NCBI GenBank assembly: GCA_965221125.1
Contig: CBDCRW010000003.1
Span: 224,001-288,000 of the forward strand
Source: Alphaproteobacteria bacterium
GTDB taxonomy: Bacteria > Pseudomonadota > Alphaproteobacteria > UBA828
Direction of reading: 5' to 3'
DNA: 64,000 bases
A program made the translations under genes and the position numbers. Of this stretch, positions 2,443 to 58,629 are shown one piece after another (the stretch's first letter is position 1; the number at the start of each line of letters is the position of its first letter). The notes under the pieces are model-generated. The model was not told the DNA's origin. It was given only the letters and a program-made list of their open reading frames with translations, and searched no databases.

Positions 2443-3594
2443 TCACCTGACGCCGAGTCCGCGCGCGATGATCGAGCGCAATATTTCGTTGGTGCCGCCC
2501 CTGAGCGTGAACGACGGCAGCCCCAGCACCGAGGCGCCGAGCGCGGACGCGAGCGAGGGCGCGTTGGCGCTGCCGCCAGCAACGGGCTCGACCGGCACGG
2601 CGCGGCGCAGCGTGTCTGCGGCCTCGAACTCGAAGCGCGTGCCCATGTCCTTCACCATCGCGGCCTCGACGTCGGGGAGCGCGCCCGCCTCAAGCTGGCC
2701 CGCGACAGCGAGCGACATGGCCCGGAGCGCGTAAAGCTCCGCCGCGAGCCGCCCGATATCCCCGGCAATCCCCGGCTCAGGTCCCGCCGCATCGACCAGC
2801 GCCGCGAAGAGATGGAATGTGCTGAGGATGCGCTCCGGCCCACTCCGCTCCAGCGCGAGCTCGCCCGTGACCTGGCGCCAGCCGTCGCCCTCCTCGCCGA
2901 TCAGCCGGTCGGCCGGGATCGTCACGTCCTCGAAGACGCACTCGTTGAAGTCGTGCTTGCCGGCGAGGTTGACGATGGGGTTGACCTGCACGCCGTCGTT
3001 CTCGAGGTCGATGAGGAACTGGCTGAGCCCCTCGTGGCGGCTCTCGCCCGCCGGCCCTGTGCGGCAGAGCGCGATCATGTACTGCGAGCGATGGGCGTTG
3101 CTGGTCCACACCTTGGTGCCGTCGATGCGCCAGCCGTCCGCCGTCCGCTCGGCACGGGTGCGCACCGAGGCAAGGTCGGAGCCGGAGTCGGGCTCGCTCA
3201 TGCCGATGGCGAAGTAGCATTCGCCGGCCGCGATCCGGGGCAGGATGTCGCGGCGCTGCGCCTCGCTGCCGAAGCGCAGCAGCAGCGGGCCGCTCTGCCG
3301 GTCCGCGACCCAGTGGGCGTAGACGGGCGCGCCCGCCGCCAGCAGCTCCTCGATCACGACGTAGCGCTCCAGCGCCGAGCGCTCGTGCCCGCCGTAGCGC
3401 CTGGGCCAGCACATGCCGATCCAGCCGCGCGCGCCGAGCGCCCGGCTGAACGAAGCCGACCAGTCCGAGCCGAAGTCGGAATCGGGCCGCCAGCCCTCGG
3501 CCGTCCGGGATTCGGCAATGAAGGCGCGGACCTCGGCGCGCAGCGCGTCCGTGCCGGGCGGCATCGCCGGCGGCGGGAAGTCGAAACCCGTCAC
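2443..3594 (-). CDS. Acyl-CoA dehydrogenase
   Basis: FAIGMSEPDSGSDLAS, GTKVWTSNA and TLRGGTNEILR motifs; GTG start at VTGFDF inferred. Confidence 0.92.
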   Translation of the reverse strand: MTGFDFPPPAMPPGTDALRAEVRAFIAESRTAEGWRPDSDFGSDWSASFSRALGARGWIGMCWPRRYGGHERSALERYVVIEELLAAGAPVYAHWVADRQSGPLLLRFGSEAQRRDILPRIAAGECYFAIGMSEPDSGSDLASVRTRAERTADGWRIDGTKVWTSNAHRSQYMIALCRTGPAGESRHEGLSQFLIDLENDGVQVNPIVNLAGKHDFNECVFEDVTIPADRLIGEEGDGWRQVTGELALERSGPERILSTFHLFAALVDAAGPEPGIAGDIGRLAAELYALRAMSLAVAGQLEAGALPDVEAAMVKDMGTRFEFEAADTLRRAVPVEPVAGGSANAPSLASALGASVLGLPSFTLRGGTNEILRSIIARGLGVR

Positions 3595-3955: not shown

Positions 3956-5008
3956 TCAGCCGCCGAAGGCCGCGCGGTAGCGCGCGAGCTTGGCCTGCCA
4001 CGCCGCGTCCTCCCGGATCGCGCGGTTGACGATGGCCGGCGGCTCCTCGCCCCGCTTCAGCGCCTGGCAGGCCACGACGTCACCCGCGCCGAGGCCGGCG
4101 AAGCACTGGTCGGTCCAGGCCAGCGCGTGGGGCGAGAACACCACGTTGTCGAGCTTGAGGATGGGGTCGGCCGGATCCGGCGGCTCGGGGTCGAGCACGT
4201 CGAGGCCCGCGCCCGCGATCCGCCCCTCCTGCAGCGCGGCCGTCAGCGCCTTCTGGTCCACCGTGCCGCCGCGCGAGGTGTTCACCAGGTAGGCCGTGGG
4301 CTTCATCAGGCCGATGAGGCGGCCGTCCACGATGTGATGGGTCTCGTCGCTTAGCGGGCAGTTGACGGTGAGGATGTCCGCCTCGCGGCAGAGCGTGTCG
4401 AGAGCGACCATCTTCACGCCGAGCTCCGCTGCCACCGCCGCATCGGCGTAGGGGTCGCAGGCGATGAAGTTCATGTCGAAGGGCTTGGCCATGCGGAACA
4501 TCTCGGCCCCGATGTTGCCGATGCCGACCGAGCCCAGCGTCTTGCCGATCAGCCCCACGCCCATGTGCCCGCTCCTCTTGGCGAAGCCGGGCGGGCCCTC
4601 GATGGTGAGCTGGTGCTTGATCAGCAGCTTGCCGGTGACGGCGAGGATCAGCGCGATGATGGCGACGGCCACCGGGCGGCGCACGCCGTCCGGCGTGATG
4701 ACCAGCGCGATGCCGTTCTCCGTACACGCCGGCACGTCCACGCTGTCGTAGCCCACGCCGAAGCGCGCGACCAGGGCGAGGCGGCCGTCGTCCGGCACGC
4801 TGGAGCGCTCGAAGCGCTGGGCCAGCAGGATGAGCGCGTCGTGGCCGGCAAGCTCGGACGCGTCCACCGGCCCGTCGGTGTTCTCCAGGTAGCGCCACTC
4901 GATGTCCGGGTCGTCGTCGAGCGGCGTGCGGTCGAACATGGGGAAGAGGGGCTCGCCCTCCGCGTCGAGAAAGTCCGCGCTCAGCGCGATTCTGAACTTA
5001 TCGGCCAT
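3956..5008 (-). CDS. D-isomer-specific 2-hydroxyacid dehydrogenase (NAD-binding)
   Basis: GSVGIGNIG Rossmann motif, LVNTSRG, AGLDVLDPEP, SPH. Confidence 0.92.
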   Translation of the reverse strand: MADKFRIALSADFLDAEGEPLFPMFDRTPLDDDPDIEWRYLENTDGPVDASELAGHDALILLAQRFERSSVPDDGRLALVARFGVGYDSVDVPACTENGIALVITPDGVRRPVAVAIIALILAVTGKLLIKHQLTIEGPPGFAKRSGHMGVGLIGKTLGSVGIGNIGAEMFRMAKPFDMNFIACDPYADAAVAAELGVKMVALDTLCREADILTVNCPLSDETHHIVDGRLIGLMKPTAYLVNTSRGGTVDQKALTAALQEGRIAGAGLDVLDPEPPDPADPILKLDNVVFSPHALAWTDQCFAGLGAGDVVACQALKRGEEPPAIVNRAIREDAAWQAKLARYRAAFGG

Positions 5009-49051: not shown

Positions 49052-51328
49052 TTACAGCGGGCGGGCGAAGCGATCGTCTTCCCTGTCCATAGCGTGAGCC
49101 ACGGCTTCGAGGATCATGAGGAGGTCTTGAGGCGAAAGCGTCCCGGCTTCGCGCAGCATCCCGAGCAGGACCTGCCGGGCGACGGGGTGGCGGCGACAGG
49201 CCTGGTTCAGGGTGTCCGTGAAGCCGCCCTCCACGATCGTCTTCATGGCCTGTTCGAAGAGGGCGCCTTGCCCGCACCCTGCGACGCCGTCGAGAGCTGC
49301 GCCACGCACCGATGCCGAGGGATCGCGCAAGCCGCCGACGGTCCTTTCGGGATGAGTTGTGGCCACCGCCTTCAACGCAGCGGCACGCACGCCGTCGTCG
49401 GGATCATCGAGCAGCGGAGCGAGGTGGAGACCCGCGTCTCCCCGTGCGGAGAGCGCGCGCGCGGCGGCCGCCCGCACAGACGGATCGCCGTCCTGCAATG
49501 CCTCGACGGCAATTTCGGTCAGATCGGATGAGAGGGGCATCGCGGCGGCGCGCCGGGCGATTGCCTCGAAGGCGGCGGTGCGCAACGCGGGTACCGTCGA
49601 GGCCGCCGCCTCCAGCAGCGCCTCCTCGATCCCGTCGCCTGCGCATTCGGCCGTCAGTCGCAGCGCGACCACTCGAAGGTCCTGGCTGAAGTGGTCGGGT
49701 CCCTCGACCGCCACTCGTCCGGGGCGAATTTTCGGCGCGGGCTTGGACGGCCGTCCGCCATCGTCCGAGGGGGCCGCCGCGGCACCGGGCTGGGCTGGCG
49801 AAAGCACACGCCCGCCGATCGCATCGAGGGTCGAACGGGGATACGCCGGCTCCGTCTCATCAGTGCCCGAAGCCTCGTCATCGGGGCCGGAGGACGGCGG
49901 CGTCAGAGTGGGGGATGTCCCGTCGTCCGGCGCCGCGGCTTCCGCCTTTCCATCGTGGTGCCTCGCAGCCACCTCGGGCGCGGGCGTGCCGTCGCGCCCG
50001 TTGCTTGCCTCCTCAGACGGCTCAGGCACGAGAGACCCGCGCACGGCATCGGTCAACACCGCGCGCGATCGATCCGCCACATCCCCCGCTGCGCTTCCGC
50101 TCAGCTCGACAAGCGCGGCGAGCGCCGCAAGCCTCACCTGCCGGGCGCGATCCACGGCCGCGCGGCTGAGCGCGTCGACACTCTCTTGCGTCTCGATCCC
50201 GCCCAGGGAGCGCAGGGCGGCAATCCTGACCTCGGGGTGCCGCTCGGTGTCCTCGGCCGCCTCGCAGAGCGCACTCTGAGAACGTGTGCCGGCCAGCGTC
50301 GGCAGCACCGCCGCGCAAACCGTCGCCAGGGGAGCAGCGGCGGTGCGCAGCCATGCCTCCACGTTGGCGACGAGATCGGGCTCGTCACTGCCCGCAGGTT
50401 CGCTTCCGCGCGCTTCCAGCGCAGGTTCGCTTCCGCGCGCTTCCAGCGCAGGTTCGCTTCCGCGCGCTTCCAGCGCGACGGCGCGCACCGCCTCGTCCGG
50501 GTCGCGGAGGGCGGATCGCCAGACGTCCGCGCGTACCGGCGCGGCCCGCGCCAGCGCGGCGCAGCGCACGGCGGCGTCCGGATCGTTCGACGCAAGGGCG
50601 GCGAGCGTCTCGTCGCCTTCGTCGAAGCAATCGATGGCGAGGCGGCGCACGTCCGGGCTCGGGTCTCGAACCAGCGCCTCGCGCAAGGGTGCCAGCGCGT
50701 CGCGCCCGACGGTGGACAATGCAGCCAGGGCGCGCTCGCGGACGCGCGCCCCTTTGTGCTCAAGGAAGCCGTGCAGCGCCGGAACGCCGCGTGCCGGCAG
50801 TCGCGCGAGCGTGGAGAACACGACGTGGTCCAGGTCCTGGCCCTCCTCGTCCTCCCGAATTTCGATCAGATCGTCGACCGCCTCGTCTGCACCGATGGCG
50901 CCGAGCGCCTCGATCGCGGCCACCTGCACATCGAGCCAGTCGTCCCATCCACCGTCCAGCTCCTCCCAAGCAACCTCTGCTTCGCACCGGCTCCGCGCCA
51001 GCGCACGCAGGAGCCCGACCGAAGACACGTCCTTCAGCCGGGCCAGCGCCCGAATGGCCGCCATCTTGACCTCTCCCACGGGGTCGCCCGCGAGCGAGCG
51101 GCGGATGGCGGGCGCGTCCTCAGGCCGGGCGCAGCGCGCGAGCGCGTCCATCGCGTCCGCGCGGAGGTCCGGGTCCGGGTCGCTGAGCACGCCCACCAGC
51201 GACGCCGCGGCGCTCTCACCGCCCAGCGCACCGAGCGCGCGCGCGGCGGCGCAGCGGACGACGTCGTCCGACGCGGCGAGGTAGGGCGCGATGGTCTGTG
51301 CGGGATCGATGTCGGAGGCCGCGCGCGC
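49052..51328 (-). CDS. HEAT-repeat protein; start codon uncertain (first GTG at 51196, reading frame open to 51328)
   Basis: Many DPDxxVRxAAxxAL repeats; directly downstream of and in frame with the idrA 3' end. Confidence 0.82.
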   Translation of the reverse strand, partial: ARAASDIDPAQTIAPYLAASDDVVRCAAARALGALGGESAAASLVGVLSDPDPDLRADAMDALARCARPEDAPAIRRSLAGDPVGEVKMAAIRALARLKDVSSVGLLRALARSRCEAEVAWEELDGGWDDWLDVQVAAIEALGAIGADEAVDDLIEIREDEEGQDLDHVVFSTLARLPARGVPALHGFLEHKGARVRERALAALSTVGRDALAPLREALVRDPSPDVRRLAIDCFDEGDETLAALASNDPDAAVRCAALARAAPVRADVWRSALRDPDEAVRAVALEARGSEPALEARGSEPALEARGSEPAGSDEPDLVANVEAWLRTAAAPLATVCAAVLPTLAGTRSQSALCEAAEDTERHPEVRIAALRSLGGIETQESVDALSRAAVDRARQVRLAALAALVELSGSAAGDVADRSRAVLTDAVRGSLVPEPSEEASNGRDGTPAPEVAARHHDGKAEAAAPDDGTSPTLTPPSSGPDDEASGTDETEPAYPRSTLDAIGGRVLSPAQPGAAAAPSDDGGRPSKPAPKIRPGRVAVEGPDHFSQDLRVVALRLTAECAGDGIEEALLEAAASTVPALRTAAFEAIARRAAAMPLSSDLTEIAVEALQDGDPSVRAAAARALSARGDAGLHLAPLLDDPDDGVRAAALKAVATTHPERTVGGLRDPSASVRGAALDGVAGCGQGALFEQAMKTIVEGGFTDTLNQACRRHPVARQVLLGMLREAGTLSPQDLLMILEAVAHAMDREDDRFARPL
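50394..50474. repeat. Three perfect 27-bp tandem repeats (ALEARGSEP x3) in the HEAT gene
   Basis: gcaggttcgcttccgcgcgcttccagc x3. Confidence 0.95.
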
Positions 51329-51614
51329 TCAGGCGATGTCGCGGCGCGCGAACGACATGGAGCGGTACTGGCGCTTGTAGGGGCTTTCGCCCAGACGCCG
51401 GACCCGTCCCACGCCCATCTTGTAGTTGTAGTTGCCGCTGATCCAGTCGACCACGCGGCCCACTAGCGAGTTTGCCGGCTGGCTGGTGTGCAGGAAGTCC
51501 ATGTAGCCGACGCCCTTCTTGATCGCCGGCGTGACGATGGCGACGGCGGTGATCGCCGCGCGCGTCAACTCGATATGTCCGTCGCGCAGCAGCGAGGCAA
51601 AATCGAAGTCGTCG
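51329..51614 (-). pseudogene. idrA: 3' fragment of the interrupted idrA/aioA-like gene
   Basis: DDFDFASLLRDGHIELTRAAITAVAIVTPAIKKG...PANSLVGRVVDWISGNYNYKMGVG; joins in frame to the 5' part once the element is removed. Confidence 0.85.
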
Positions 51615-51764
51615 CCTTTGTTGTTTTCCGGTCTAGCCGGATAGAAGCACGGGTTTTTTTCTCACTTTGATTGGTTGGTGGATTTCCCGGGATGGTGGCC
51701 GAGTGCGGGAAGGACGCTGCCTGCGGCATTTTTTTGATCCTCAGCAGAATCCTCATTGCTGTTG

Positions 51765-51898
51765 AAGCTGTGGAGCGGTGGGCGCGAGATCGGCGAGTGT
51801 GGTCAGGCGGTGGGCAAGCGCCAGCTTGTCCACGGGCTGTCCACACGGTCCGCAGGACGCCGATCGGTCCGCAGGACGCGTCCACGGCTCCACAGCTT
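51765..51898. other. Nested multi-stem structure in the transposon left non-coding region
   Basis: AAGCTGTGGAGCGGTGG pairs with CCACGGCTCCACAGCTT; inner stem 51797-51846; two CGGTCCGCAGGACGC direct repeats. Confidence 0.75.
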
Positions 51899-51987
51899 GG
51901 CGGCGGCGGGGAGCGTCCGTAATCTTGGCCTCTCACTGAACGACAAAGAGAGGCCCGGGGGACGGAACTCCCGCCGGGCCAGGGCCG

Positions 51988-52623
51988 GTGCAGCTTCGCT
52001 ACGAAACGGGGCTCACCAGCGAGGAATACGTTAAGACCGAGGCGTGGCGCGACGCAAGGCTTGAGCGCTGCCCGAATCACCCGCACGGCGGATGTTCTGT
52101 GGCAAGCCACGGCACCTACGAGCGGAAGACCCCGCCCGGCGCAAGGGTTCCTCGCTGGTATTGCCGTGAGAGCCATACGACCATCGGCCTGCTGGCCGAC
52201 TGTCTGGCGGCGCGGCTGCCGGGCACGCTCGATGCGCTGGAAGCGGTTGTTGTCGTGGCGGAGGAGGCCGGCAGCCTGGAGGAGGCAGCGGACGAGGTGC
52301 GCTGCCCCGAGGACGAGGACGCCATCGAGCTTCCCGGCGCCGTGCGTTGGATCCGCCGCAGGCTGAAGCTTGTGCACGACGCGCTTGTGCGCGTCATCGG
52401 CCTGATCCCCGACCTGCTCGCGGGCTGCGCGCCCACCATGAGCGCGGTGCGCGAGCGTCTGAAGAGCGACAGCGCGTTGATGGAACTGCGCGGCCTGGTC
52501 GCCGGGCAGCTCCGGACGCTACCCGCGCCTCTGGGCTTCCAACCCCACGGCATCGACGTGGGGAATCGCAAACCGCAGTTCCAACAACGGGCGGGGCCGG
52601 ACCCGCCGCCGGAGAGTTCGTAG
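51988..52623 (+). CDS. Transposon-encoded Cys/His (Zn-ribbon-like) protein, DUF6431-like
   Basis: CPNHPHGGC..HGTYER...RWYC..SHTTIGLLADCL; first gene of the element operon. Confidence 0.65.
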   Translation: MQLRYETGLTSEEYVKTEAWRDARLERCPNHPHGGCSVASHGTYERKTPPGARVPRWYCRESHTTIGLLADCLAARLPGTLDALEAVVVVAEEAGSLEEAADEVRCPEDEDAIELPGAVRWIRRRLKLVHDALVRVIGLIPDLLAGCAPTMSAVRERLKSDSALMELRGLVAGQLRTLPAPLGFQPHGIDVGNRKPQFQQRAGPDPPPESS

Positions 52624-52668
52624 CGTGACGATCCCGGGGCCAGGGAGTCCCTGAACGAGGATCGCACC

Positions 52669-53997
52669 ATGAACAGCTCAGACGACGACCTTCGCCAACA
52701 GATCGCGCTCTTCCGATACGACGTCATCGCCGATCTGGTGCATCTGCCCGTGGGTGCACCGGGTGCCGGCGCGATGATGCGCGCCAAAGCCGAGAAGACC
52801 TACACGATCCCCGGAACCACCAGGACCCGGGTCGCCGCCGAGACCATGCGGCGCTGGATCAAGGACTACCGCTACGGCGGCTTCGACGCGCTCTACCCCA
52901 AGCCCCGCACCGACCGGGGGAAGCCCCGGCGGCTGCCGCCCGAGGTCGCCGAGCGCCTCATCGCGCTGAAGACCGAGAACGACGCATTGTCGGTTCGCGC
53001 CATCATCCAGAAGGTCAAGGAGGAGGGTATCGACCACCCGCTCGCCTCGTCCACCGTGCACCGCCTCTTCAGCCGCGAGGGCCTGTTCGACAAGAAGCCG
53101 CCCGACGGGGCGGATCGCCGCCGCTTCGCCTTCCGGCATGCCGGCGAGATGTGGATGAGCGACGTCATGCACGGACCCAAGGTCCGGCACGGCCGAACCC
53201 GGCGCAAGACCTACCTGATCGCCTTCATCGACGACGCCACCCGCGTCATCCCGTTCGCCGCCTTCGCCATGGCGGAGAACACTGCGGCGTTCCTGCCGGT
53301 GTTCAAGGACGCGCTGATCCGGCGCGGCCTCCCGGCCCGCTTGTACGTCGACAACGGAAGCGCCTACCGCTCCCGTCATCTCTCCCTGGTCTGCGCCAGG
53401 CTCGGCGTTGCGTTGATTCACGCAAGGGCGTTCCAGCCAGCGGGAAAGGGTAAGATCGAGCGCTTCTTCCGCACCCTCCGGGCCGGCTGGCTCCGCCACC
53501 TCGGCGATGACGTCGACAGCCTGGAGGCGCTCAACCGCAGCCTCTGGGCCTGGATCGAGGGGGAGTATCACAACAGCCCGCATCGTGGCCTCGACGAGGG
53601 GCGCACCCCGCTTGAGCAGTGGGCGCTGGCCTCGGCCGGCGTGCGCTATCCCGACGCCACCATGGACCTCGACGATCTGTTCCTCTTCGAGGCCAGGCGC
53701 CGTGTCTACAAGGACCGCACCGTTAGTCTGAACGGCCGCGTCTACGAGGTCGACGCCCTCCTGGTGGGTCAGAACGTCATCCTGCGCTACGACCCGGCCG
53801 CGCCGCCCTCGCGCCCTCTCGACGTGGTCCATGACGGCAAGCCGGCCGGCAAGGCCAGCCCTCTCGACGCCTACGCCAATACCGCCGTCAGGCGCACCTA
53901 CCCGGCCAGGGAGATCGAGGCCGAAGATCCGGCGCCCGAGCCTCCGCCCTCGCCGCTGGCCATGCGCAACCTCAAGGACAAGAAGGAGGACGAGTGA
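52669..53997 (+). CDS. DDE transposase/integrase (rve; Mu/TnsB/IS481-like)
   Basis: HTH region, WMSD, YVDNG, GKIERFFRT, YHNSPH, C-terminal VSLNGRVYEV. Confidence 0.93.
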   Translation: MNSSDDDLRQQIALFRYDVIADLVHLPVGAPGAGAMMRAKAEKTYTIPGTTRTRVAAETMRRWIKDYRYGGFDALYPKPRTDRGKPRRLPPEVAERLIALKTENDALSVRAIIQKVKEEGIDHPLASSTVHRLFSREGLFDKKPPDGADRRRFAFRHAGEMWMSDVMHGPKVRHGRTRRKTYLIAFIDDATRVIPFAAFAMAENTAAFLPVFKDALIRRGLPARLYVDNGSAYRSRHLSLVCARLGVALIHARAFQPAGKGKIERFFRTLRAGWLRHLGDDVDSLEALNRSLWAWIEGEYHNSPHRGLDEGRTPLEQWALASAGVRYPDATMDLDDLFLFEARRRVYKDRTVSLNGRVYEVDALLVGQNVILRYDPAAPPSRPLDVVHDGKPAGKASPLDAYANTAVRRTYPAREIEAEDPAPEPPPSPLAMRNLKDKKEDE

Positions 53998-54797
53998 TGT
54001 ACCTGCGCCACTTCGCCTTCACCCGCCTGCCCTTCGAGACCCCGGCAGAGACCGACGAGCTGTTCGAGTCCAACGCGCGCCGCGAGGCCGAGGCCAGGCT
54101 CGGCCACCTCATCGACCTGCGCGGCATCGGCCTGCTCACCGGCGAGGTGGGCTCCGGCAAGACCACCGTGTGCCGGCATCTGACCGCGCAGCTTCATCCA
54201 GGCCTCTACCGGGTCCACTACGTCTCGCTGACCACGGGCAACGTGCTCGACATGTACAAGGCGATCGCGTGGGAGATCGGCCTGCCCATCGAGCGCTCCC
54301 GCGCCTCGGCCTATCAGGCCATCCGAAACGAGATCTCCCGCCTCGTCACCGAGGCCAAGCAGCTGCCGGTCCTCGTCATCGACGAGGCCCATCATCTGCG
54401 CAACGACGTCCTTGAGGACCTGCGCCTGCTCACCAACTTCGCCATGGATGCAGAGCAGCGCCTGTGCCTCGTCCTCGTCGGTCTGACCGAGCTCAGGCGC
54501 CGCCTGGCCATGGCCATGCACGAATCCCTCAGCCAGCGCCTCGTCGTCCGCCACCACCTGAGCGGTCTCGACCGCGACGAGGTCGACGCTTACATCAAGC
54601 ACCGCCTCAGGCTCGCGGGATGCGAACTGCCGCTGTTCGAAGAGCCCGCCGTCGAGGCCCTGTTCCAGGGCGCGCGCGGCCTGCCGCGCCAGATCAACCG
54701 CATCGCCCACTACGCGCTCTCCGCCGCCGCTCTCGACGAGGCGAGGACCGTCAGTGCCGACCACCTGCAGCACGCGCTCGAGGAACTGCGGCCATGA
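53994..54797 (+). CDS. ExeA-type AAA+ ATPase (transposition helper, TnsC/MuB-like role)
   Basis: YLRHFAFTRLPF, Walker A GEVGSGKT, Walker B LVIDEAH, GLPRQIN; overlaps the transposase stop. Confidence 0.9.
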   Translation: MMYLRHFAFTRLPFETPAETDELFESNARREAEARLGHLIDLRGIGLLTGEVGSGKTTVCRHLTAQLHPGLYRVHYVSLTTGNVLDMYKAIAWEIGLPIERSRASAYQAIRNEISRLVTEAKQLPVLVIDEAHHLRNDVLEDLRLLTNFAMDAEQRLCLVLVGLTELRRRLAMAMHESLSQRLVVRHHLSGLDRDEVDAYIKHRLRLAGCELPLFEEPAVEALFQGARGLPRQINRIAHYALSAAALDEARTVSADHLQHALEELRP

Positions 54798-55834
54798 CCG
54801 GCTTCCCGACCCGCGCCCCGATCGAGCTGGAGGAGCGGCCGCGCGAGCAGCAATGGCTGGTGGACACGCTATGGGGCGAGCAGGCCGTCGGCATCGTCGG
54901 CGGCGAGCCGAAGTGCGGCAAGTCCATCCTGGCGCTGGACCTCGCGGTCGCAGTCGCCGCCGGCGTCCCATGCCTGCGGCACTTCGCCCCGGCCCGGCCT
55001 GGCCCGGTCCTGCTGTTCGCCGCAGAAGACGCCGGCCACCTCGTGCGCAAGCGCCTGCAGGGGATCGCCCGCGCCGCAGGCGCCCGCTTCGAGACCCTCG
55101 ACATCGCCGTCATCGACGTGCCCACACTGCGCCTCGACCATCTCGACGACCGCCGCCGCCTGCAGCAGACCGTGGAGCGCATCGCACCGCGCCTCGTGGT
55201 CCTCGACCCCCTGGTCCGCCTGCACGGCGTGGACGAGAACACGGTTGCGGACGTCGCCCCGATCCTCGGCTTCCTGCGCGACCTGCAACGCCGCTTCGAG
55301 ACCGCCGTCCTCCTCGTCCACCACGCCCGCAAGAGCGGGGCCACGAGGCCGGGGCAGGCCCTGCGGGGCAGCAGTGAGCTGCACGCCTGGGGGGACTCGA
55401 ACCTCTACCTGCGCCGCCGGGACCGGCAGACCCTCATGACCGTCGAGCATCGCGCCGCACGCGGTCTCGACGACATCGAGATCGAGCTCAAGGAAGACGG
55501 AGAGGAGCCCTCCTTCCGGCTGCGCCAGCCGCCCACGGCCGGCGGCGGGGCGCCTCAGCCCGAAACACCCGAATGCCGCGTTCTCAAGGCGCTCGCCGAC
55601 GCCGGGGCGCCGCTCTCGCAACGCCAGATCCGGGAACGCGCCGCGACCCGGCACAAGACCGTCGGCGTAATCTTGCAAAAGCTCGTCCAGGAGGGTCGCG
55701 TCGCGCGCAACGCCGAGGGCGGCTACAGCGTCGTCGCAGGCGCAGCGGACAAGCGGGCGGCGGCCGCCGCCGCCAACGGCAGCAGTCGGCCGCAGGCCCC
55801 GCGGTTCCCGGAGCCCGGTTCCGCCAACGCCTAG
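54794..55834 (+). CDS. RecA-fold AAA_25/RepA-like helicase with C-terminal winged-helix-like region
   Basis: WLVDTLW, GEPKCGKS, AAED, LVVLDP, VDEN, LVHHARK and LRGSS motifs; ATGA overlap with the ATPase stop. Confidence 0.85.
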   Translation: MTGFPTRAPIELEERPREQQWLVDTLWGEQAVGIVGGEPKCGKSILALDLAVAVAAGVPCLRHFAPARPGPVLLFAAEDAGHLVRKRLQGIARAAGARFETLDIAVIDVPTLRLDHLDDRRRLQQTVERIAPRLVVLDPLVRLHGVDENTVADVAPILGFLRDLQRRFETAVLLVHHARKSGATRPGQALRGSSELHAWGDSNLYLRRRDRQTLMTVEHRAARGLDDIEIELKEDGEEPSFRLRQPPTAGGGAPQPETPECRVLKALADAGAPLSQRQIRERAATRHKTVGVILQKLVQEGRVARNAEGGYSVVAGAADKRAAAAAANGSSRPQAPRFPEPGSANA

Positions 55835-55864
55835 GGGTTCGAGCCGGAACCGCCGTCGGGAACC
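55803..55864. repeat. Inverted GGTTCC/GGAACC repeats around CCTAGG at the helicase stop
   Basis: GGTTCCCGGAGCCCGGTTCCG-ccaacg-CCTAGG-ggttcgagc-CGGAACCGCCGTCGGGAACC. Confidence 0.7.
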
Positions 55865-56239
55865 ACCCTTCCCCAACGGTCCGGAAGGCGCTGCGCCTCC
55901 ACCGGGATACTACGTCAGGTGAGCGGCCAGTCCGTGGCCGGAAGCTTGCTTCAGGCCATGGCAGCACTTCGTCGTGTGGACGGTGGCGAGTCACCCGAAG
56001 GGCCGAAGCGAAGCGCAGGAGCGGCGCAGCCGCTTGACGCGCCGACGGCCGCGCGACACCTCGTCAGCTCTCCTCAAGCACCAGTCCAAACCTCAATCAG
56101 ACAGCGACCCCGGACCGCCCGCAGAGACCATGAGCTCCTACGCTTCGATCCGGAAAAGACCGAGCAATCTGGGAAATCAGGGCAGCGATCACGTCAAATA
56201 ATCTGGGAGATTCGGCGTCAAATAACGTGCGAAACAACA

Positions 56240-58629
56240 CCTTCGACACCGATGATGGTGTTTGTCTGTACCGGAACGCGGTCGGAATAGATCATCACGT
56301 AGTCGCCGGACTCGATGCCGCGGGCTGCGGCGTCGTCCGGGTGAAGCTCGATCCAGTTCTCGGGCCAGCGCTGCACGATATACGGGCGGCGGCGGTCGTC
56401 GTAGCCGGACTGCCAGCGCTCGTTGATACGCCCCGAGGTGACCCAGATCTCGTCCTCGCGCGGCTTCATCCACTCCCAGTAGCTGGAGAACAGGCTCCAC
56501 GGCGCCTTCTGCAGGTTGCACTTGCCGGTCTGCGTGTTGAAGTGCGTGAGCTTCTTGTTGAACACCGTGCCGCCGGCGGGGCCGTCCTCCGGGAGTACCC
56601 GGTTCACGTCGTGGAGGCGCTTGGTCTCCTCCAGCGTGCCGTCGGCGCGCATGAGCACCGGGCCCTGGATGCCGTTGGTCCCGAACTCGCGGAGCTTGTC
56701 GTGCAGCGTCTTGCCCTCGCGCTGGGCCGCCACCTTGACCATGAAGAAATCCTTGCGCGAGCCGCGGGAGAAGCGCGCGCCTTCCTCCAGCACCTCGTTG
56801 GAGTCCTTCCAGTCGAAGCCCTCGAAGCCCATCCTCCTGGCGAGTTGGGCAACGATCCACCAGTCGGGCTTCGCGTCGCCGGGCGCGTCGTAGAACTTGG
56901 GATAGAGACGGATGCGCCGCTCGCCGTTGGCGCGGGTGAAGGTCTCCTCGCCCCAGCCGGCCGCGGGGAAGATGATGTCGGCGTAGCGCGCGCCGATGGG
57001 GTCGACCAGGTAGATGTCCTGGTTCCACACCACCATGCCGCCAGAATCGACCCGCCGCTTCAACGTGTCGACGATGTCGGCGGGGTCGAAGCTCTGCACC
57101 TGGTGCGGGTTCTGCGTGGTCAGCTCGTCGAATTTCGCCTGCAGCGACTGCGAGCCGCACATCGCCTGCACCCAGGTCGTGCCGATAACGTGGGCGAGCC
57201 GCGTGTGGCCGCTCATCAGGTAGCGGTCGGTATCGAGCGCCCGGCGCCGGCGACCGGGCAGCTTCTCCGGGCTCTTGTTGCGAGGGTAGCCGCCGCCCCG
57301 CAAGCCCCCGCGCTGGTGCCCGCCGGCGCGGCCGATCACCTGGCCGGGGCGGCCGCCGCAGCCGCAGATGATGCCCAACGAGGAGATGGCGTTGGTGTTG
57401 CCGGTGTTGTTGGACCAGTAGAAGCCCTTCTCGATCATGATCGAGGTCTTGGGCCGGGACCCGTCGGCGCGCGGCTTCGCCATCCACTCGGCGGCGGTGT
57501 AGATCTTCTGGACGTCGATCTGGGCGATCTCGGCCGCCTTCTCCGGCACCGCGTAGTCCTGGGCCAGCAGCCACGCCTTCCAGTCCTCGAAGCCGTCGGT
57601 CTGGAACTTGCCCCAGGTGGTGCGCCACTGCCACGGGGTGTTACGGGTGCCCTGCCCGAAGCCGGACGAGCTCTCCCACTTGTTGTTGACCCAGTCGCGG
57701 ATCCACGCCGAGTCCTCCCACCCGTTCTCGACGATCACGCGGGCGATCGCGAGCACGACGGGCAGGTCGGTACCGGGCTGGATGTCGATCATCATCCCGC
57801 CGTTGGCCTCGGCGTAAGCCACGCCGCCGGTGCGGCGCGGCAGCAAAAAGATCGCGCGCTGCCCGTTCTGGATGCCGGGCATGATCCAGTCGGTGAACAG
57901 GATGGTCTTGGATTCGTAAGGGTCGGTGCCGCACATCAGCAGGACTTCGGCATCGCGCCAGTCCTCGTAGGACGGTCCGAAATTGTCGAAGCCCGCATCG
58001 CGGAAGCCGGGCGTGGACGTCACGTCCGAGGGCGTGTCGTGGAAGGTGAAGTTCGCCGTGCGCACGTTGCGGAGCGCGTACTTGGTGATGGCGTAGGTGT
58101 TCTCCATGTAGCCGTAAGAGAACGTCTTGACGCAGTAGGCGTTGGTGCCGTGCGCATCGAGCACGTGATTGCCCACCTCGGCCGCGATATCGAGCGCGAA
58201 GTCCCACGGCACCGGCATCAGAACGCCGAACATGCGCACCAGCGGCGAGCTCAGCCGGTCGCGCGTCGGCGTCTCCGGGTTGTAGACCTTCTGCGCGATG
58301 GCGCCGCCCCGGATCGAGGAGTTGCCGGAGTAGTTGACGAAGTCGGTGTCCTTGTCCGGGATGATGACGACGTGGTGGGGCTCGCCGTCGTGCAGCACGA
58401 TGTTGTGCTGATTGGGCGCGACCCAGGCGCCCAGAGGCTCGACCGGGAAGTCGGCGTCCAGCGCGTTCTGATCGGCGGTCGGCCCGCCCGTCTTGCCGCC
58501 CCGCACCGGCCAGCGGTAGACCTTGTAGCCGCAGGCGACGATGCAATAGTCGCAGGCGGTCGAGATGACCTCCGCGTCCGGCGGCGGCAGCGGCACGCTC
58601 TCTTCGGGGACGTAGTAGGGAGTGGACAT
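56240..58629 (-). pseudogene. idrA: 5' part of an IdrA/AioA-like molybdopterin oxidoreductase large subunit, interrupted by the transposon
   Basis: PLPPPDAEVISTACDYCIVACGY ([3Fe-4S]-type motif), NSSIRGG, GGHQ, NGERRIRL, SGRINE, IELHPDDA. Twin peroxidase neighbours favour IdrA over AioA. Confidence 0.8.

What the first reader, a model, noticed from the sequence alone, without database searches (positions are those of the whole stretch)
51619..56239. Precisely bounded transposon pairing Mu/Tn7-like transposition genes with a RepA-like helicase
Seen: TGT...ACA ends with an 8-bp IR, a 4-bp CCTT duplication, and four co-oriented genes (Zn-ribbon-like protein, DDE transposase, ExeA-type ATPase, AAA_25 RecA-fold protein), the last three with overlapping stop/start codons. 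Established: transposase plus AAA+ ATPase is the core of Mu, Tn7, Tn5053 and IS21; Mu, Tn7 and Tn5053 make 5-bp duplications, Tn7/Tn5053 use TniQ/TnsD, and none needs its own helicase. Here there is no TniQ, resolvase or cargo, and the helicase lies inside the ends. Inference: a distinct element family in which the helicase drives replicative copy-out or target capture. I cannot tell from sequence alone whether it has already been catalogued.
Basis: partly seen in the sequence, partly recalled or inferred. Interest (0 to 1): 0.85.

Follow-up and report, generated by a model that had tools for sequence, protein, structure and literature searches.

The report
Transposon carrying its own helicase gene
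This is one of twenty identical copies of a jumping gene that, besides the usual Mu/Tn7-type cutting enzyme and helper ATPase, carries a plasmid-type replication helicase gene that has been traded between several unrelated transposon lineages, sometimes together with a primase.

Summary
Window 51619-56239 is a 4,621-bp element with TGTTGTTT/AAACAACA ends, a CCTT duplication and four co-oriented genes. It interrupts a molybdopterin oxidoreductase gene. The genome holds 20 copies at 100% identity.

The 4-bp duplication is not typical: 15 of 20 copies have perfect 5-bp duplications, as in Mu, Tn7 and Tn5053.

Gene 1 is a divergent DUF6431 zinc-ribbon protein. Gene 2 is a MuA/TnsB/IS481-like DDE transposase. 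Gene 3 is a MuB/TnsC-like AAA+ ATPase. Gene 4 matches the RSF1010 RepA helicase in sequence and fold and ends in a winged helix.

DUF6431-DDE-ATPase elements without gene 4 occur on plasmids, so the helicase is not obligatory for the wider family. Close gene-4 relatives, however, sit directly behind a transposon AAA+ gene in 135 of 137 evaluable loci. The other two are IS21 elements (IstA-IstB-helicase).

Trees show the helicase was swapped between transposase lineages. In one lineage a DnaG-type primase follows it inside the inverted repeats.

My reading is a swappable replication module serving replicative transposition; its function is inferred, not shown. I found no description in six literature searches. 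ISfinder and TnCentral could not be queried. It is a new variant of a known kind.

The parts
51619..56239 (+). Whole 4,621-bp transposon, one of 20 copies at 100% identity in the genome
51615..51618 (.). Left copy of the CCTT target-site duplication. The right copy is at 56240-56243.
   Evidence: 4 bp here; 5 bp in 15 of 20 copies.
56240..56243 (.). Right copy of the CCTT target-site duplication
51619..51626 (+). Left terminal inverted repeat, TGTTGTTT
   Evidence: The same end is present in all 20 copies.
56232..56239 (+). Right terminal inverted repeat, AAACAACA
51846..51879 (+). Two direct copies, 19 nt apart, of the 15-nt unit CGGTCCGCAGGACGC, which contains a palindrome. They lie upstream of gene 1. 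I take them as a candidate operator or protein-binding site (inference).
   Evidence: family D1.
51988..52623 (+). Gene 1: 211-aa zinc-ribbon-like protein, a divergent DUF6431 family member of unknown function
   Evidence: No Pfam hit. hhalign against DUF6431 proteins gives probability 96.3%, E 1.7e-9. Atlas nearest clusters carry PF20020. 1,313 homologues. dN/dS 0.31-0.44.
52669..53997 (+). Gene 2: 442-aa DDE transposase with HTH_32, rve and Mu-transpos_C domains
   Evidence: NCBIfam IS481 model 201.9 bits, below the cut-off of 224. phrog_310 transposase 3.2e-49. PDB TnsB 5.2e-7. dN/dS 0.17-0.29.
53994..54797 (+). Gene 3: AAA+ ATPase (AAA_22), MuB/TnsC/TniB-like. The likely start is the ATG at 53997, behind AAGGAGG.
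   Evidence: phrog_296 'DNA transposition protein' 1.4e-29. The profile matches MuB 8xvb at E 3.5e-13 and TnsC.
54794..55834 (+). Gene 4: 346-aa RepA-like RecA-fold ATPase (AAA_25, residues about 1-245) with a C-terminal winged helix (about 255-315)
   Evidence: PDB RSF1010 RepA E 9.6e-10 with the single protein and 1.1e-13 with the profile. Model pLDDT 78.9; fit to RepA 1g8y has target-normalised TM 0.70 and rmsd 2.8. dN/dS 0.22-0.30.
55926..56057 (+). Conserved structured motif of about 130 nt in the right non-coding region. It is present only in a subset of related elements, and once alone in another genome. It is probably not part of the core machinery.
56166..56232 (+). Right subterminal direct repeats: AATCTGGGA(A/G)AT twice and CGTCAAATAA twice. 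A related ATTTCCCGGGAT lies at about 51682-51693 in inverted orientation. I take them as candidate transposase-binding sites (inference).
56244..58629 (-). Upstream piece of the interrupted host gene, carrying Rieske_3, Molybdopterin and the start of Molydop_binding. 'Arsenite-oxidase-large-subunit-like' is my recalled label for this architecture.
51329..51618 (-). Downstream piece of the same host gene, carrying the end of the Molydop_binding domain

Best explanation
The feature is a recently active, cargo-free DDE transposon. Its core is a DUF6431-type zinc-ribbon protein, a MuA/TnsB/IS481-like transposase and a MuB/TnsC-like AAA+ regulator. The core works like Mu, Tn7, Tn552 or IS21: the transposase pairs TG...CA ends, the AAA+ protein prepares the target, and insertion uses a 5-bp (sometimes 4-bp) stagger.

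Its fourth gene is a RepA-type hexameric-helicase-like ATPase with a DNA-binding winged helix. This gene is an exchangeable accessory module that always sits immediately behind, and is translationally coupled to, the AAA+ gene.

My preferred mechanism is inferred. The element brings its own replicative helicase, and in an older or parallel form also its own DnaG-type primase. This helicase is placed on the branched strand-transfer (or copy-out) intermediate, possibly with the AAA+ regulator acting as loader. The replication step of replicative transposition would then not depend on the host restart primosome. That would fit the absence of TnsA and of a resolvase, and the burst to 20 identical copies.
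For: Shown:
- Exact ends and 20 copies at 100% identity.
- 5-bp duplications in 15 of 20 copies.
- A host gene is interrupted.
- Domain content.
- Gene 4 matches RSF1010 RepA (E 1.1e-13). The Walker A, AED, Walker B, HH and RGSS stretches align, and its fold fits RepA.
- All four genes are under purifying selection, with gene 4 at 0.22-0.30 against 0.17-0.29 for the transposase.

Linkage:
- An AAA_22 ATPase gene lies directly upstream of the helicase gene in 78 of 78 evaluable genome loci and 57 of 59 evaluable metagenome loci.
- The two exceptions are IS21-family elements with IstA-IstB-AAA_25.

Module exchange:
- The transposase and ATPase trees need 2 label changes; the helicase tree needs 5.
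- This element's helicase nests inside the lineage-B helicase clade.
- Nucleotide similarity to lineage-B elements begins at the helicase start codon.

Primase:
- A DnaG-type primase (Zn_ribbon_DnaG + Toprim) follows the helicase in 7 of 20 evaluable metagenome loci.
- It lies inside the inverted repeats of the 5.5-kb lineage-C element.
- Primase remnants are seen in 3 further loci.

Other:
- No anti-phage defence family matches the helicase.
- Three fused AAA_22+AAA_25 proteins exist.
Against: No activity was tested: helicase function, hexamer formation and any role in transposition are all inferred.

The helicase is missing from the plasmid-borne DUF6431-DDE-ATPase relatives. Those relatives are closer in transposase (37-39% identity) than lineages B and C (25-30%). 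The core therefore transposes without it.

Free exchange between lineages whose transposase and ATPase are only 25-30% identical argues against a tight, co-evolved protein contact.

This element and all 68 evaluable genome loci lack the primase.

No circle or cointegrate junction was seen, but only assembled contigs were available.

The exchanged flanks on contig C4 fit both homologous recombination and intramolecular replicative transposition, so they do not discriminate.

The fused proteins could be frameshift or gene-calling artefacts at the ATGA overlap.
Confidence: 0.55

Rival explanations
1. Gene 4 is not a translocating helicase. It is a target selector or regulator: a RecA-fold switch ATPase that uses its winged helix to mark target or forbidden DNA and signals to the AAA+ regulator. 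It would fill the role that TniQ/TnsD/TnsE or transposition immunity play in Tn7-like elements.
For: - A C-terminal winged helix is present.
- The gene always sits beside the AAA+ gene.
- No TniQ is present.
- RecA-fold relatives in the fold search include non-helicases such as KaiC and RAD51 paralogues.
Against: - The best compact match in sequence and fold is a true replicative helicase, RepA.
- A DnaG-type primase is its neighbour in one lineage, which a target selector would not need.
- The 20 insertion sites show no common motif that I could see in the duplications.
Confidence: 0.17
2. Helicase (with or without primase) is a plasmid-like replication module. It lets an excised circular copy of the element replicate as an episome. 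The element would then be a transposable mini-replicon rather than a transposon that uses the helicase during transposition itself.
For: - Likeness to RSF1010 RepA, which works with a dedicated primase (the role of RepB' is recalled).
- A primase lies inside the ends in lineage C.
- The winged helix could bind an origin.
- IS21 and IS481-type elements are known to form circular or tandem junction intermediates (recalled).
Against: - No initiator (Rep) gene and no iteron-type origin were recognised. The two 15-nt repeats at 51846-51879 are the only candidate.
- No contig joins the right end to the left end (contigs only).
- All 20 copies are chromosomal, with target duplications.
Confidence: 0.15
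3. Gene 4 is passenger cargo, for example a repair, defence or counter-defence gene. It hitch-hikes on DDE+AAA+ transposons and has no role in their movement.
For: - It is absent from the plasmid relatives.
- It moves between lineages like cargo.
Against: - It has the same position and the same ATGA coupling to the AAA+ gene in four lineages. At 45% identity or more it is almost never found elsewhere: 135 of 137 evaluable loci, and the other 2 are IS21 elements.
- No PADLOC family matches it.
- Selection is as strong as on the transposase.
- The elements carry nothing else.
Confidence: 0.08

Closest known systems
Phage Mu transposition module (MuA transposase + MuB AAA+ target activator)
   Same: - The transposase has rve and Mu-transpos_C domains and matches phrog_310 (3.2e-49).
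- The ATPase matches phrog_296 (1.4e-29) and MuB 8xvb (E 3.5e-13).
- TG...CA ends, 5-bp duplications, and no endonuclease for the second strand.
- Mu replicates through a strand-transfer intermediate (recalled).
   Different: - No phage genes; a 4.6-kb IS-like element.
- It has a DUF6431 gene and its own RepA-like helicase, where Mu relies on the host PriA/DnaB restart machinery (recalled).
Tn7 / Tn5053-Tn402 family (TnsB/TniA + TnsC/TniB + TniQ/TnsD)
   Same: - DDE transposase related to TnsB (PDB 7svw, E 5.2e-7; PADLOC TnsB 2.6e-7).
- AAA+ protein related to TnsC and TniB.
- 5-bp duplications.
- Subterminal repeats that look like multiple binding sites.
   Different: - No TnsA, TniQ/TnsD, resolvase or cargo.
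- The TniB Pfam score is below its cut-off (20.8 against 22.4).
- A helicase gene is present.
IS21 family (IstA + IstB)
   Same: - Two overlapping genes for a DDE transposase and a dedicated AAA+ helper, a small cargo-free IS, and TG...CA ends.
- True IS21 elements carrying the same helicase type were found (L183, L186).
   Different: - This element's transposase scores 43.1 bits against the IS21 cut-off of 160.
- Its ATPase is AAA_22, not IstB_IS21.
IS481 family
   Same: It is the best NCBIfam transposase model (201.9 bits). It has TGT...ACA ends, and NCBI names some plasmid relatives IS481.
   Different: - The score is below the curated cut-off of 224.
- IS481 elements are single-gene (recalled). 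This one has four genes and a Mu-type C-terminal domain.
Tn552 of Staphylococcus (p480 transposase, p271 ATP-binding protein, BinL resolvase)
   Same: - A transposase plus an ATP-binding helper.
- 408 Staphylococcus plasmid records match the transposase at under 60% identity. That these records are Tn552 is my recollection, not checked.
   Different: No resolvase, res site or bla cargo. Tn552 makes 6-7-bp duplications (recalled).
RSF1010 RepA helicase with RepB' primase
   Same: Gene 4 aligns to RepA over its catalytic motifs and fits its fold. In lineage C a dedicated primase follows.
   Different: - It is encoded in a transposon, not a plasmid.
- It has an extra C-terminal winged helix.
- The primase is DnaG-type, not RepB'-type.
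- No RepC-like initiator is present.
Self-synthesizing transposons (casposons, Polintons)
   Same: The same idea of a transposon that carries part of its own replication machinery (titles and abstracts seen in the listing).
   Different: Those use Cas1 or retroviral-type integrases with a protein-primed polymerase. Here it is a Mu-type DDE/AAA+ pair with a helicase (with or without a primase) and no polymerase.

Membership tests
IS481 family | Transposase reaches the curated score of the NCBIfam IS481 model (NF033577, cut-off 224 bits) | tested here: not met
   201.9 bits for this element. 123.9 and 134.8 bits for lineages B and C.
IS481 family | Single transposase gene between the ends (recalled definition) | tested here: not met
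   Four conserved genes lie between the ends.
IS21 family | IstA-type transposase (NF033546, cut-off 160 bits) | tested here: not met
   43.1 bits. For contrast, L183 scores 258.5 bits.
IS21 family | IstB-type helper (Pfam IstB_IS21) | tested here: not met
   Gene 3 hits AAA_22 at 5.7e-27, and IstB_IS21 is not among its 17 listed families.
Tn7 / Tn5053 (Tn402) family | TnsB/TniA-type DDE transposase with a Mu-type C-terminal barrel | tested here: met
   rve and Mu-transpos_C domains. TnsB matches.
Tn7 / Tn5053 (Tn402) family | TnsC/TniB-type AAA+ regulator | tested here: inconclusive
   Pfam TniB 20.8 bits, below the 22.4 cut-off. The profile matches TnsC chains at E 1.5e-10 to 4.2e-9 and MuB better.
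Tn7 / Tn5053 (Tn402) family | TniQ/TnsD target selector | tested here: not met
   No TniQ hit for any gene. Gene 1 is DUF6431-like. Its profiles find no TniQ or TnsD chain in the PDB.
Tn7 / Tn5053 (Tn402) family | TnsA endonuclease (Tn7) or TniR resolvase with a res site (Tn5053) | tested here: not met
   Only four genes lie between the ends, and none has such a domain.
Tn7 / Tn5053 (Tn402) family | 5-bp target duplication | tested here: met
   15 of 20 copies are perfect at 5 bp. This copy has 4 bp.
Mu-like transposition module | MuA-like transposase plus MuB-like AAA+ protein | tested here: met
   phrog_310 at 3.2e-49 and phrog_296 at 1.4e-29. MuB 8xvb at E 3.5e-13.
Mu-like transposition module | Part of a transposable phage genome | tested here: not met
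   The 4.6-kb element has four genes and no structural or lysis genes.
DUF6431-DDE-AAA_22 elements (unnamed; seen on plasmids) | Gene order: zinc-ribbon DUF6431 protein, DDE transposase, AAA+ ATPase | tested here: met
   hhalign of gene 1 against DUF6431 proteins gives probability 96.3%. The same order is seen in 4 of 4 plasmid relatives.
RepA/DnaB-type hexameric helicases (gene 4) | RecA-fold core with Walker A, catalytic Glu, Walker B, sensor His and Arg finger. The roles of these residues are recalled from the RepA structure papers. | tested here: met
   The stretches GKS, AED, LDxL..H, HHA.K and RGSS align with RepA. They are invariant or nearly so in 37 relatives. Fold fit: target-normalised TM 0.70.
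RepA/DnaB-type hexameric helicases (gene 4) | Forms hexameric rings and unwinds DNA | not testable with these tools
   A hexamer exceeds the size limit of the complex tool.

The most novel reading that the evidence does not exclude
These are 'self-priming' DDE transposons. The transposon's AAA+ target regulator (MuB/TnsC-like, or IstB, which is a paralogue of the DnaC helicase loader) doubles as a loader. It deposits the element's own RepA-type helicase, and in some lineages a DnaG-type primase, on the strand-transfer intermediate. The element thus assembles a private primosome and replicates itself during transposition without the host restart pathway. The helicase(-primase) cassette spreads horizontally among otherwise unrelated Mu-like and IS21-like transposons because it boosts copy number.
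Probability: 0.3. Interest if true: 0.9.

Novelty: new variant of a known kind. Interest (0 to 1): 0.72.

Why it matters
How replicative DDE transposons hand their strand-transfer intermediate over to a replisome is well worked out only for phage Mu, where host restart proteins do the job (recalled). A family of small transposons that encodes its own replicative-type helicase, and sometimes a primase, next to the AAA+ regulator would be a natural system for asking that question.

It would also link transposon AAA+ helpers such as IstB, MuB and TnsC to their helicase-loader relatives in a functional way rather than only an evolutionary one.

The elements are evidently very successful. There are 20 identical copies here and at least 14 in another genome. 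Near-identical versions occur in genome bins labelled as six different phyla from sponge and marine samples. They are therefore also relevant to genome plasticity in symbiont communities.

Compact DDE+AAA+ systems are of interest as insertion tools, and an accessory that raises copy number could matter there.

Tried and rejected
**Structure of gene 1.** Mean pLDDT was 40.4, so the model is unusable and no fold search was made on it.

**Complex prediction of gene 3 with gene 4.** The tool gave no verdict (score 0.00). This is not evidence either way.

**Sequencing runs.**
- All 24 runs are held as assembled contigs only.
- The listed joints are only 'skips' at low depth, and 5 joints were not shown. 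No contig joining right end to left end was listed.
- Contigs cannot show rare circles, so this says nothing about a circular intermediate.
- RNA-library contigs (X17, X18) match parts of the element at 90-99%, but this does not show transcription.
- In X1 the element's depth is about 390-400 against 3-16 in the flanking bins. Summed contig depth is not a copy number, so I draw nothing from it.

**Rfam.** Only one sub-threshold hit (21.6 bits against a gathering score of 79).

**Promoter and terminator scan.** Nothing above shuffles.

**The 130-nt structured motif as a helicase loading site.** I considered this and rejected it as a general explanation. The covariance model found it in only 3 of 98 further sources: L017 (where it is outside the element), L024 and part of L081. 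It is absent from all lineage-C, IS21 and other metagenome loci.

**TniQ-likeness of gene 1.** No PDB TniQ or TnsD match with either profile.

**Defence-cargo idea.** No PADLOC hit for gene 4.

**Terminal repeats in single metagenome contigs.** The search gave only weak, unconvincing pairs and I did not use it.

**An error of mine.** The primase query was cut one base out of frame, so their primase columns (including '6 of 20') are void. repeat the count with the right frame.

**Literature.**
- Six full-text searches found no description of a DDE+AAA+ transposon with a RepA-like helicase or primase.
- DUF6431 occurs in 2 papers (listing only seen).
- The 'AAA_25' hit in PMC5088516 was a false match to a strain name.
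An existing catalogue entry therefore cannot be excluded.

Full report
**1. The observation**

The sequence shows TGTTGTTT at 51619-51626 and its complement AAACAACA at 56232-56239. CCTT lies immediately outside both ends.

Four + strand genes lie between the ends: 51988-52623, 52669-53997, 53994/53997-54797 and 54794-55834. The second and third overlap as TGATG. The third and fourth overlap as ATGA.

The ends are real transposon ends.
- A whole-genome search finds 17 uninterrupted copies at 100% identity over all 4,621 bases, plus three copies split by an insertion.
- Anchoring on the two ends gives 20 copies, each in a different flank.
- Removing the element and one CCTT leaves an 895-codon open frame across the junction on the minus strand.
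- The two pieces of that frame carry Rieske_3, Molybdopterin and the two halves of a Molydop_binding domain. This copy therefore interrupts a molybdopterin oxidoreductase gene.

**2. Target duplication**

Among the 20 copies:
- 15 have perfect 5-bp duplications.
- One has 5 bp with one mismatch.
- Two have 4 bp (this copy and C7:271668).
- Two inversely oriented copies about 40 kb apart on contig C4 carry reciprocally exchanged 5-bp flanks (CCCTC, CGGGG).

The exchanged flanks are expected both from recombination between two copies and from intramolecular replicative transposition, so they do not discriminate between the two.

In related elements of five other genome sets, 43 copies gave 14 duplications of 4 bp, 20 of 5 bp, 4 of 6 bp and 5 with none. 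The stagger is thus 4-5 bp, mostly 5 for this element, as in Mu, Tn7 and Tn5053 (their lengths are recalled).

**3. The proteins**

*Gene 2* has HTH_32, rve and Mu-transpos_C domains.
- Its best NCBIfam model is IS481, at 201.9 bits against a cut-off of 224.
- It matches the phage transposase family phrog_310 at 3.2e-49 and TnsB chains in the PDB at 5.2e-7.

*Gene 3* is an AAA_22 ATPase.
- It matches phrog_296 'DNA transposition protein' at 1.4e-29.
- As a profile of 41 relatives, its best full-length PDB matches are MuB (8xvb, 3.5e-13) and then TnsC.

*Gene 1* has no Pfam hit, even at E 10.
- Its profile aligns to the DUF6431 proteins that precede the transposase in plasmid relatives (hhalign probability 96.3%, E 1.7e-9).
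- The Atlas places it next to clusters in which 29-57% of members carry PF20020.
- Its conserved core reads C-x2-H ... HGTYERK ... RWYC..SH, which I take as a variant zinc ribbon (inference).

*Gene 4* is AAA_25 plus a weak MarR-type winged helix.
- Its only significant PDB relative by sequence is the hexameric replicative helicase RepA of RSF1010, at 9.6e-10 alone and 1.1e-13 as a profile.
- The alignment covers the GKS, AED, LD..L..H, HHA.K and RGSS stretches. These are invariant or nearly so among 37 relatives.
- An AlphaFold model (pLDDT 78.9) fits RepA with target-normalised TM 0.70 and rmsd 2.8 Å.
- It also fits DnaB, RadA, KaiC and RAD51-type RecA folds at similar Foldseek E-values.
- The residue roles (catalytic Glu, sensor His, Arg finger) are recalled from the RepA literature, not tested here.

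**4. The wider family, and where the helicase is absent**

The transposase matches 1,037 plasmid records, all below 60% identity. In 76 of them the match covers 80% or more of the query.

I inspected four of the best: Cupriavidus, Pandoraea, Streptomyces and Geobacillus. All four have a DUF6431 protein (Pfam), the DDE transposase (37-39% identical) and an ATPase. The ATPase is annotated in three and found by tblastn in all four. None has an AAA_25 gene.

The helicase protein finds nothing at all in the 72,556 plasmid records at E 1e-5.

In 400 evenly sampled genomes of the phylum:
- Seven besides the window's own have a transposase relative at E 1e-40.
- Only three (G158, G050, G222) have a helicase relative above 40% identity. 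The other 49 matching genomes besides the window's own have generic AAA_25 proteins at 25-35%.

So a DUF6431-DDE-ATPase core exists and moves without the helicase.

**5. Where the helicase is present**

A scan of species-representative genomes returned 80 loci with helicase relatives of 67-99% identity. They come from genome bins labelled Alphaproteobacteria, Dehalococcoidia/Chloroflexota, Poribacteria, Acidobacteria, Acidimicrobiales and Gemmatimonadota, often in many copies per genome. For example, at least 14 loci come from one chromosome.

These loci fall into two lineages.
- Lineage A resembles this element: transposase 78-99% identical, TGTTGT...AACAACA ends.
- Lineage B has a transposase and ATPase only 25-30% identical to this element's, TGAG...CTCA ends and a different but still DUF6431-like first gene (hhalign 94.7%). 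Its helicase is nevertheless 67-80% identical.

A third lineage, C, was found in G158 and G050: transposase about 29%, ATPase about 31% and helicase 41-44% identical.

A metagenome scan seeded on lineage C returned 80 more loci at 45-92% identity.

Counting only loci with enough upstream sequence:
- An ATPase gene of this type lies directly upstream of the helicase gene in 78 of 78 genome loci and 57 of 59 metagenome loci.
- The transposase lies upstream of that in 70 of 73 and 37 of 38 loci. The misses are truncated copies (L024, L062, L068) and L183.

The two exceptions, L183 and L186, are informative. They are IS21-family elements with IstA (NCBIfam IS21, 258.5 bits against a cut-off of 160) and IstB (Pfam IstB_IS21, 1.6e-61), followed by the same helicase type with overlapping stop and start.

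At 45% identity or more, this helicase type was therefore found only behind the dedicated AAA+ gene of a DDE transposon, in four different transposon lineages.

**6. The helicase is an exchangeable module**

Maximum-likelihood trees of 43 elements recover lineages B and C as single branches. Lineage A forms two groups for both transposase and ATPase. In those two trees the labels need 2 changes (careful search for the transposase, quick search for the ATPase).

On the helicase tree the same labels need 5 changes (quick search).
- The helicases of this element and its three closest relatives nest inside the lineage-B helicase clade (10 rows, SH-aLRT 100).
- L140 and L147, lineage B by transposase, and L143 carry lineage-C-type helicases.

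At the DNA level, similarity between this element and lineage-B elements begins within a few bases of the helicase start codon (element position 3170-3182; the gene starts at 3176). It runs to position 4442 at most, stopping about 180 bp short of the right end.

Synonymous divergence of gene 4 is lower than that of the other genes in three of five comparisons, which fits the exchange. dN/dS is 0.22-0.30 for gene 4, 0.17-0.29 for the transposase, 0.07-0.23 for the ATPase and 0.31-0.44 for gene 1. All four genes are therefore kept by selection.

**7. A primase partner**

In lineage C a further gene overlaps the end of the helicase gene. It encodes a 308-aa protein with Zn_ribbon_DnaG and Toprim domains that matches phage primase families (phrog_47, 3.3e-32).

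Three related copies (G158, G050 and metagenome contig L139) define the ends of this 5.5-kb element. They are TGTTACGCTGCACGCCC and, in inverted orientation, TGTTGCGTTGCACGCCC. The primase lies inside them.

With the correctly framed query:
- A primase of 220 aa or more follows the helicase in 7 of 20 metagenome loci that have at least 1 kb downstream, and in 0 of 68 genome loci.
- L150 has most of one. Three more are cut off by contig ends.
- L153, L147 and L197 keep only fragments, which suggests loss (inference).

This element has none.

**8. Mechanism**

What is shown:
- A Mu/Tn7/IS21-like DDE plus AAA+ core.
- No second-strand endonuclease and no resolvase.
- Recent multiplication to 20 identical copies.
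- A RepA-type ATPase with intact motifs.
- Obligate linkage of that ATPase to the AAA+ gene.
- A dedicated primase in one lineage.

What I infer is that the module supplies a helicase, and originally a primase, to the branched transposition intermediate so that the element is copied. [quoted passage not shown] I therefore think the AAA+ regulator may help load the helicase.

Evidence against, or limiting this reading:
- The helicase is dispensable for the wider family.
- It is exchanged between very divergent partners.
- No biochemical or genetic test exists.

Three fused AAA_22+AAA_25 proteins (P0005, P0243, P0244) hint at coupling, but they may be artefacts of the 4-base gene overlap.

The rivals are a target-selecting or regulatory ATPase, an episomal replication module for an excised circle, and plain cargo. 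They are weighed in their own sections.

**9. Comparison and novelty**

The element works like Mu, Tn7/Tn5053, Tn552 and IS21. It fails the membership tests of IS481 and IS21 (scores below cut-off) and of Tn7/Tn5053 (no TniQ, TnsA or resolvase).

It belongs to an unnamed DUF6431-DDE-AAA+ group that NCBI annotates only generically.

I found no description of a bacterial DDE transposon with its own RepA-like helicase or DnaG-like primase in six full-text searches. I rate it a new variant of a known kind.

**10. Habitat**

Runs that hold half or more of the element's sampled words are labelled sponge or marine metagenomes, apart from two coded organisms, A and B (16 runs, 6 studies). The best holder may be the source sample itself.

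Noticed in passing
G000:C7:276233-277684 (L230), and 13 other places in the genome; none in the window: A 1,453-bp IS256-family insertion sequence (NCBIfam 343.4 bits, cut-off 150) is present in 14 identical copies with 8-9-bp duplications. Three of the 14 sit inside copies of the four-gene element, all in its non-coding subterminal parts (element positions about 172-179, 4533-4541 and 4557-4564). The element's copies make up only about 2% of the genome.
   Followed up: partly
G000:C4:671960-676580 (-) and C4:716887-721507 (+): Two inversely oriented copies about 40 kb apart carry reciprocally exchanged 5-bp flanks (CCCTC/CGGGG). The segment between them has been inverted, either by recombination between copies or by intramolecular replicative transposition.
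   Followed up: partly
window 55926-56057 (+); also L017:688-820 (-), L024:4110-4266: A conserved structured motif of about 130 nt lies 90 nt downstream of gene 4. It has 44 predicted pairs, 8 with compensatory changes, and no Rfam match. It is shared at 83-86% by some lineage-A and lineage-B elements. In one Dehalococcoidia bin it is missing from the element but present alone about 3 kb away on the other strand. It is not found in lineage C, IS21 or the other metagenome loci. It may be a small mobile or RNA element of its own.
   Followed up: partly
L183:984-4304 and L186:162-2162 (metagenome contigs): True IS21-family elements (IstA, IstB) carry a third, overlapping gene for the same RepA-like AAA_25 protein (about 50% identical to the lineage-C one).
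   Followed up: partly
L125:1-5498 (G158:C87), L139, L128: A 5.5-kb relative with about 17-bp inverted repeats carries five genes. The last is a DnaG-type primase (Zn_ribbon_DnaG + Toprim) that overlaps the end of the helicase gene.
   Followed up: yes
window 51329-51618 and 56244-58629 (-): The interrupted host gene encodes a Rieske_3 + molybdopterin oxidoreductase. This is an arsenite-oxidase-large-subunit-like architecture (the label is recalled). This copy is presumably inactivated.
   Followed up: partly
window 49052-51196 (-): The next gene downstream of the interrupted one encodes a 714-aa protein made of HEAT repeats (HEAT_2, E 8.3e-37).
   Followed up: no
proteins P0005, P0243, P0244, P0242, P0245, P0246: Single-member database proteins in which the helicase is fused to other domains: the AAA_22 ATPase (three cases), a ParB-like domain, a phage-integrase domain and a Prim-Pol domain. 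They may be real fusions or gene-calling artefacts.
   Followed up: no
L015-L094 (genome contigs): Elements 83-99% identical in the helicase occur in genome bins labelled as different phyla (Alphaproteobacteria, Dehalococcoidia, Poribacteria, Acidobacteria). This points either to recent horizontal spread within one community or to mis-binning of a multi-copy repeat.
   Followed up: no
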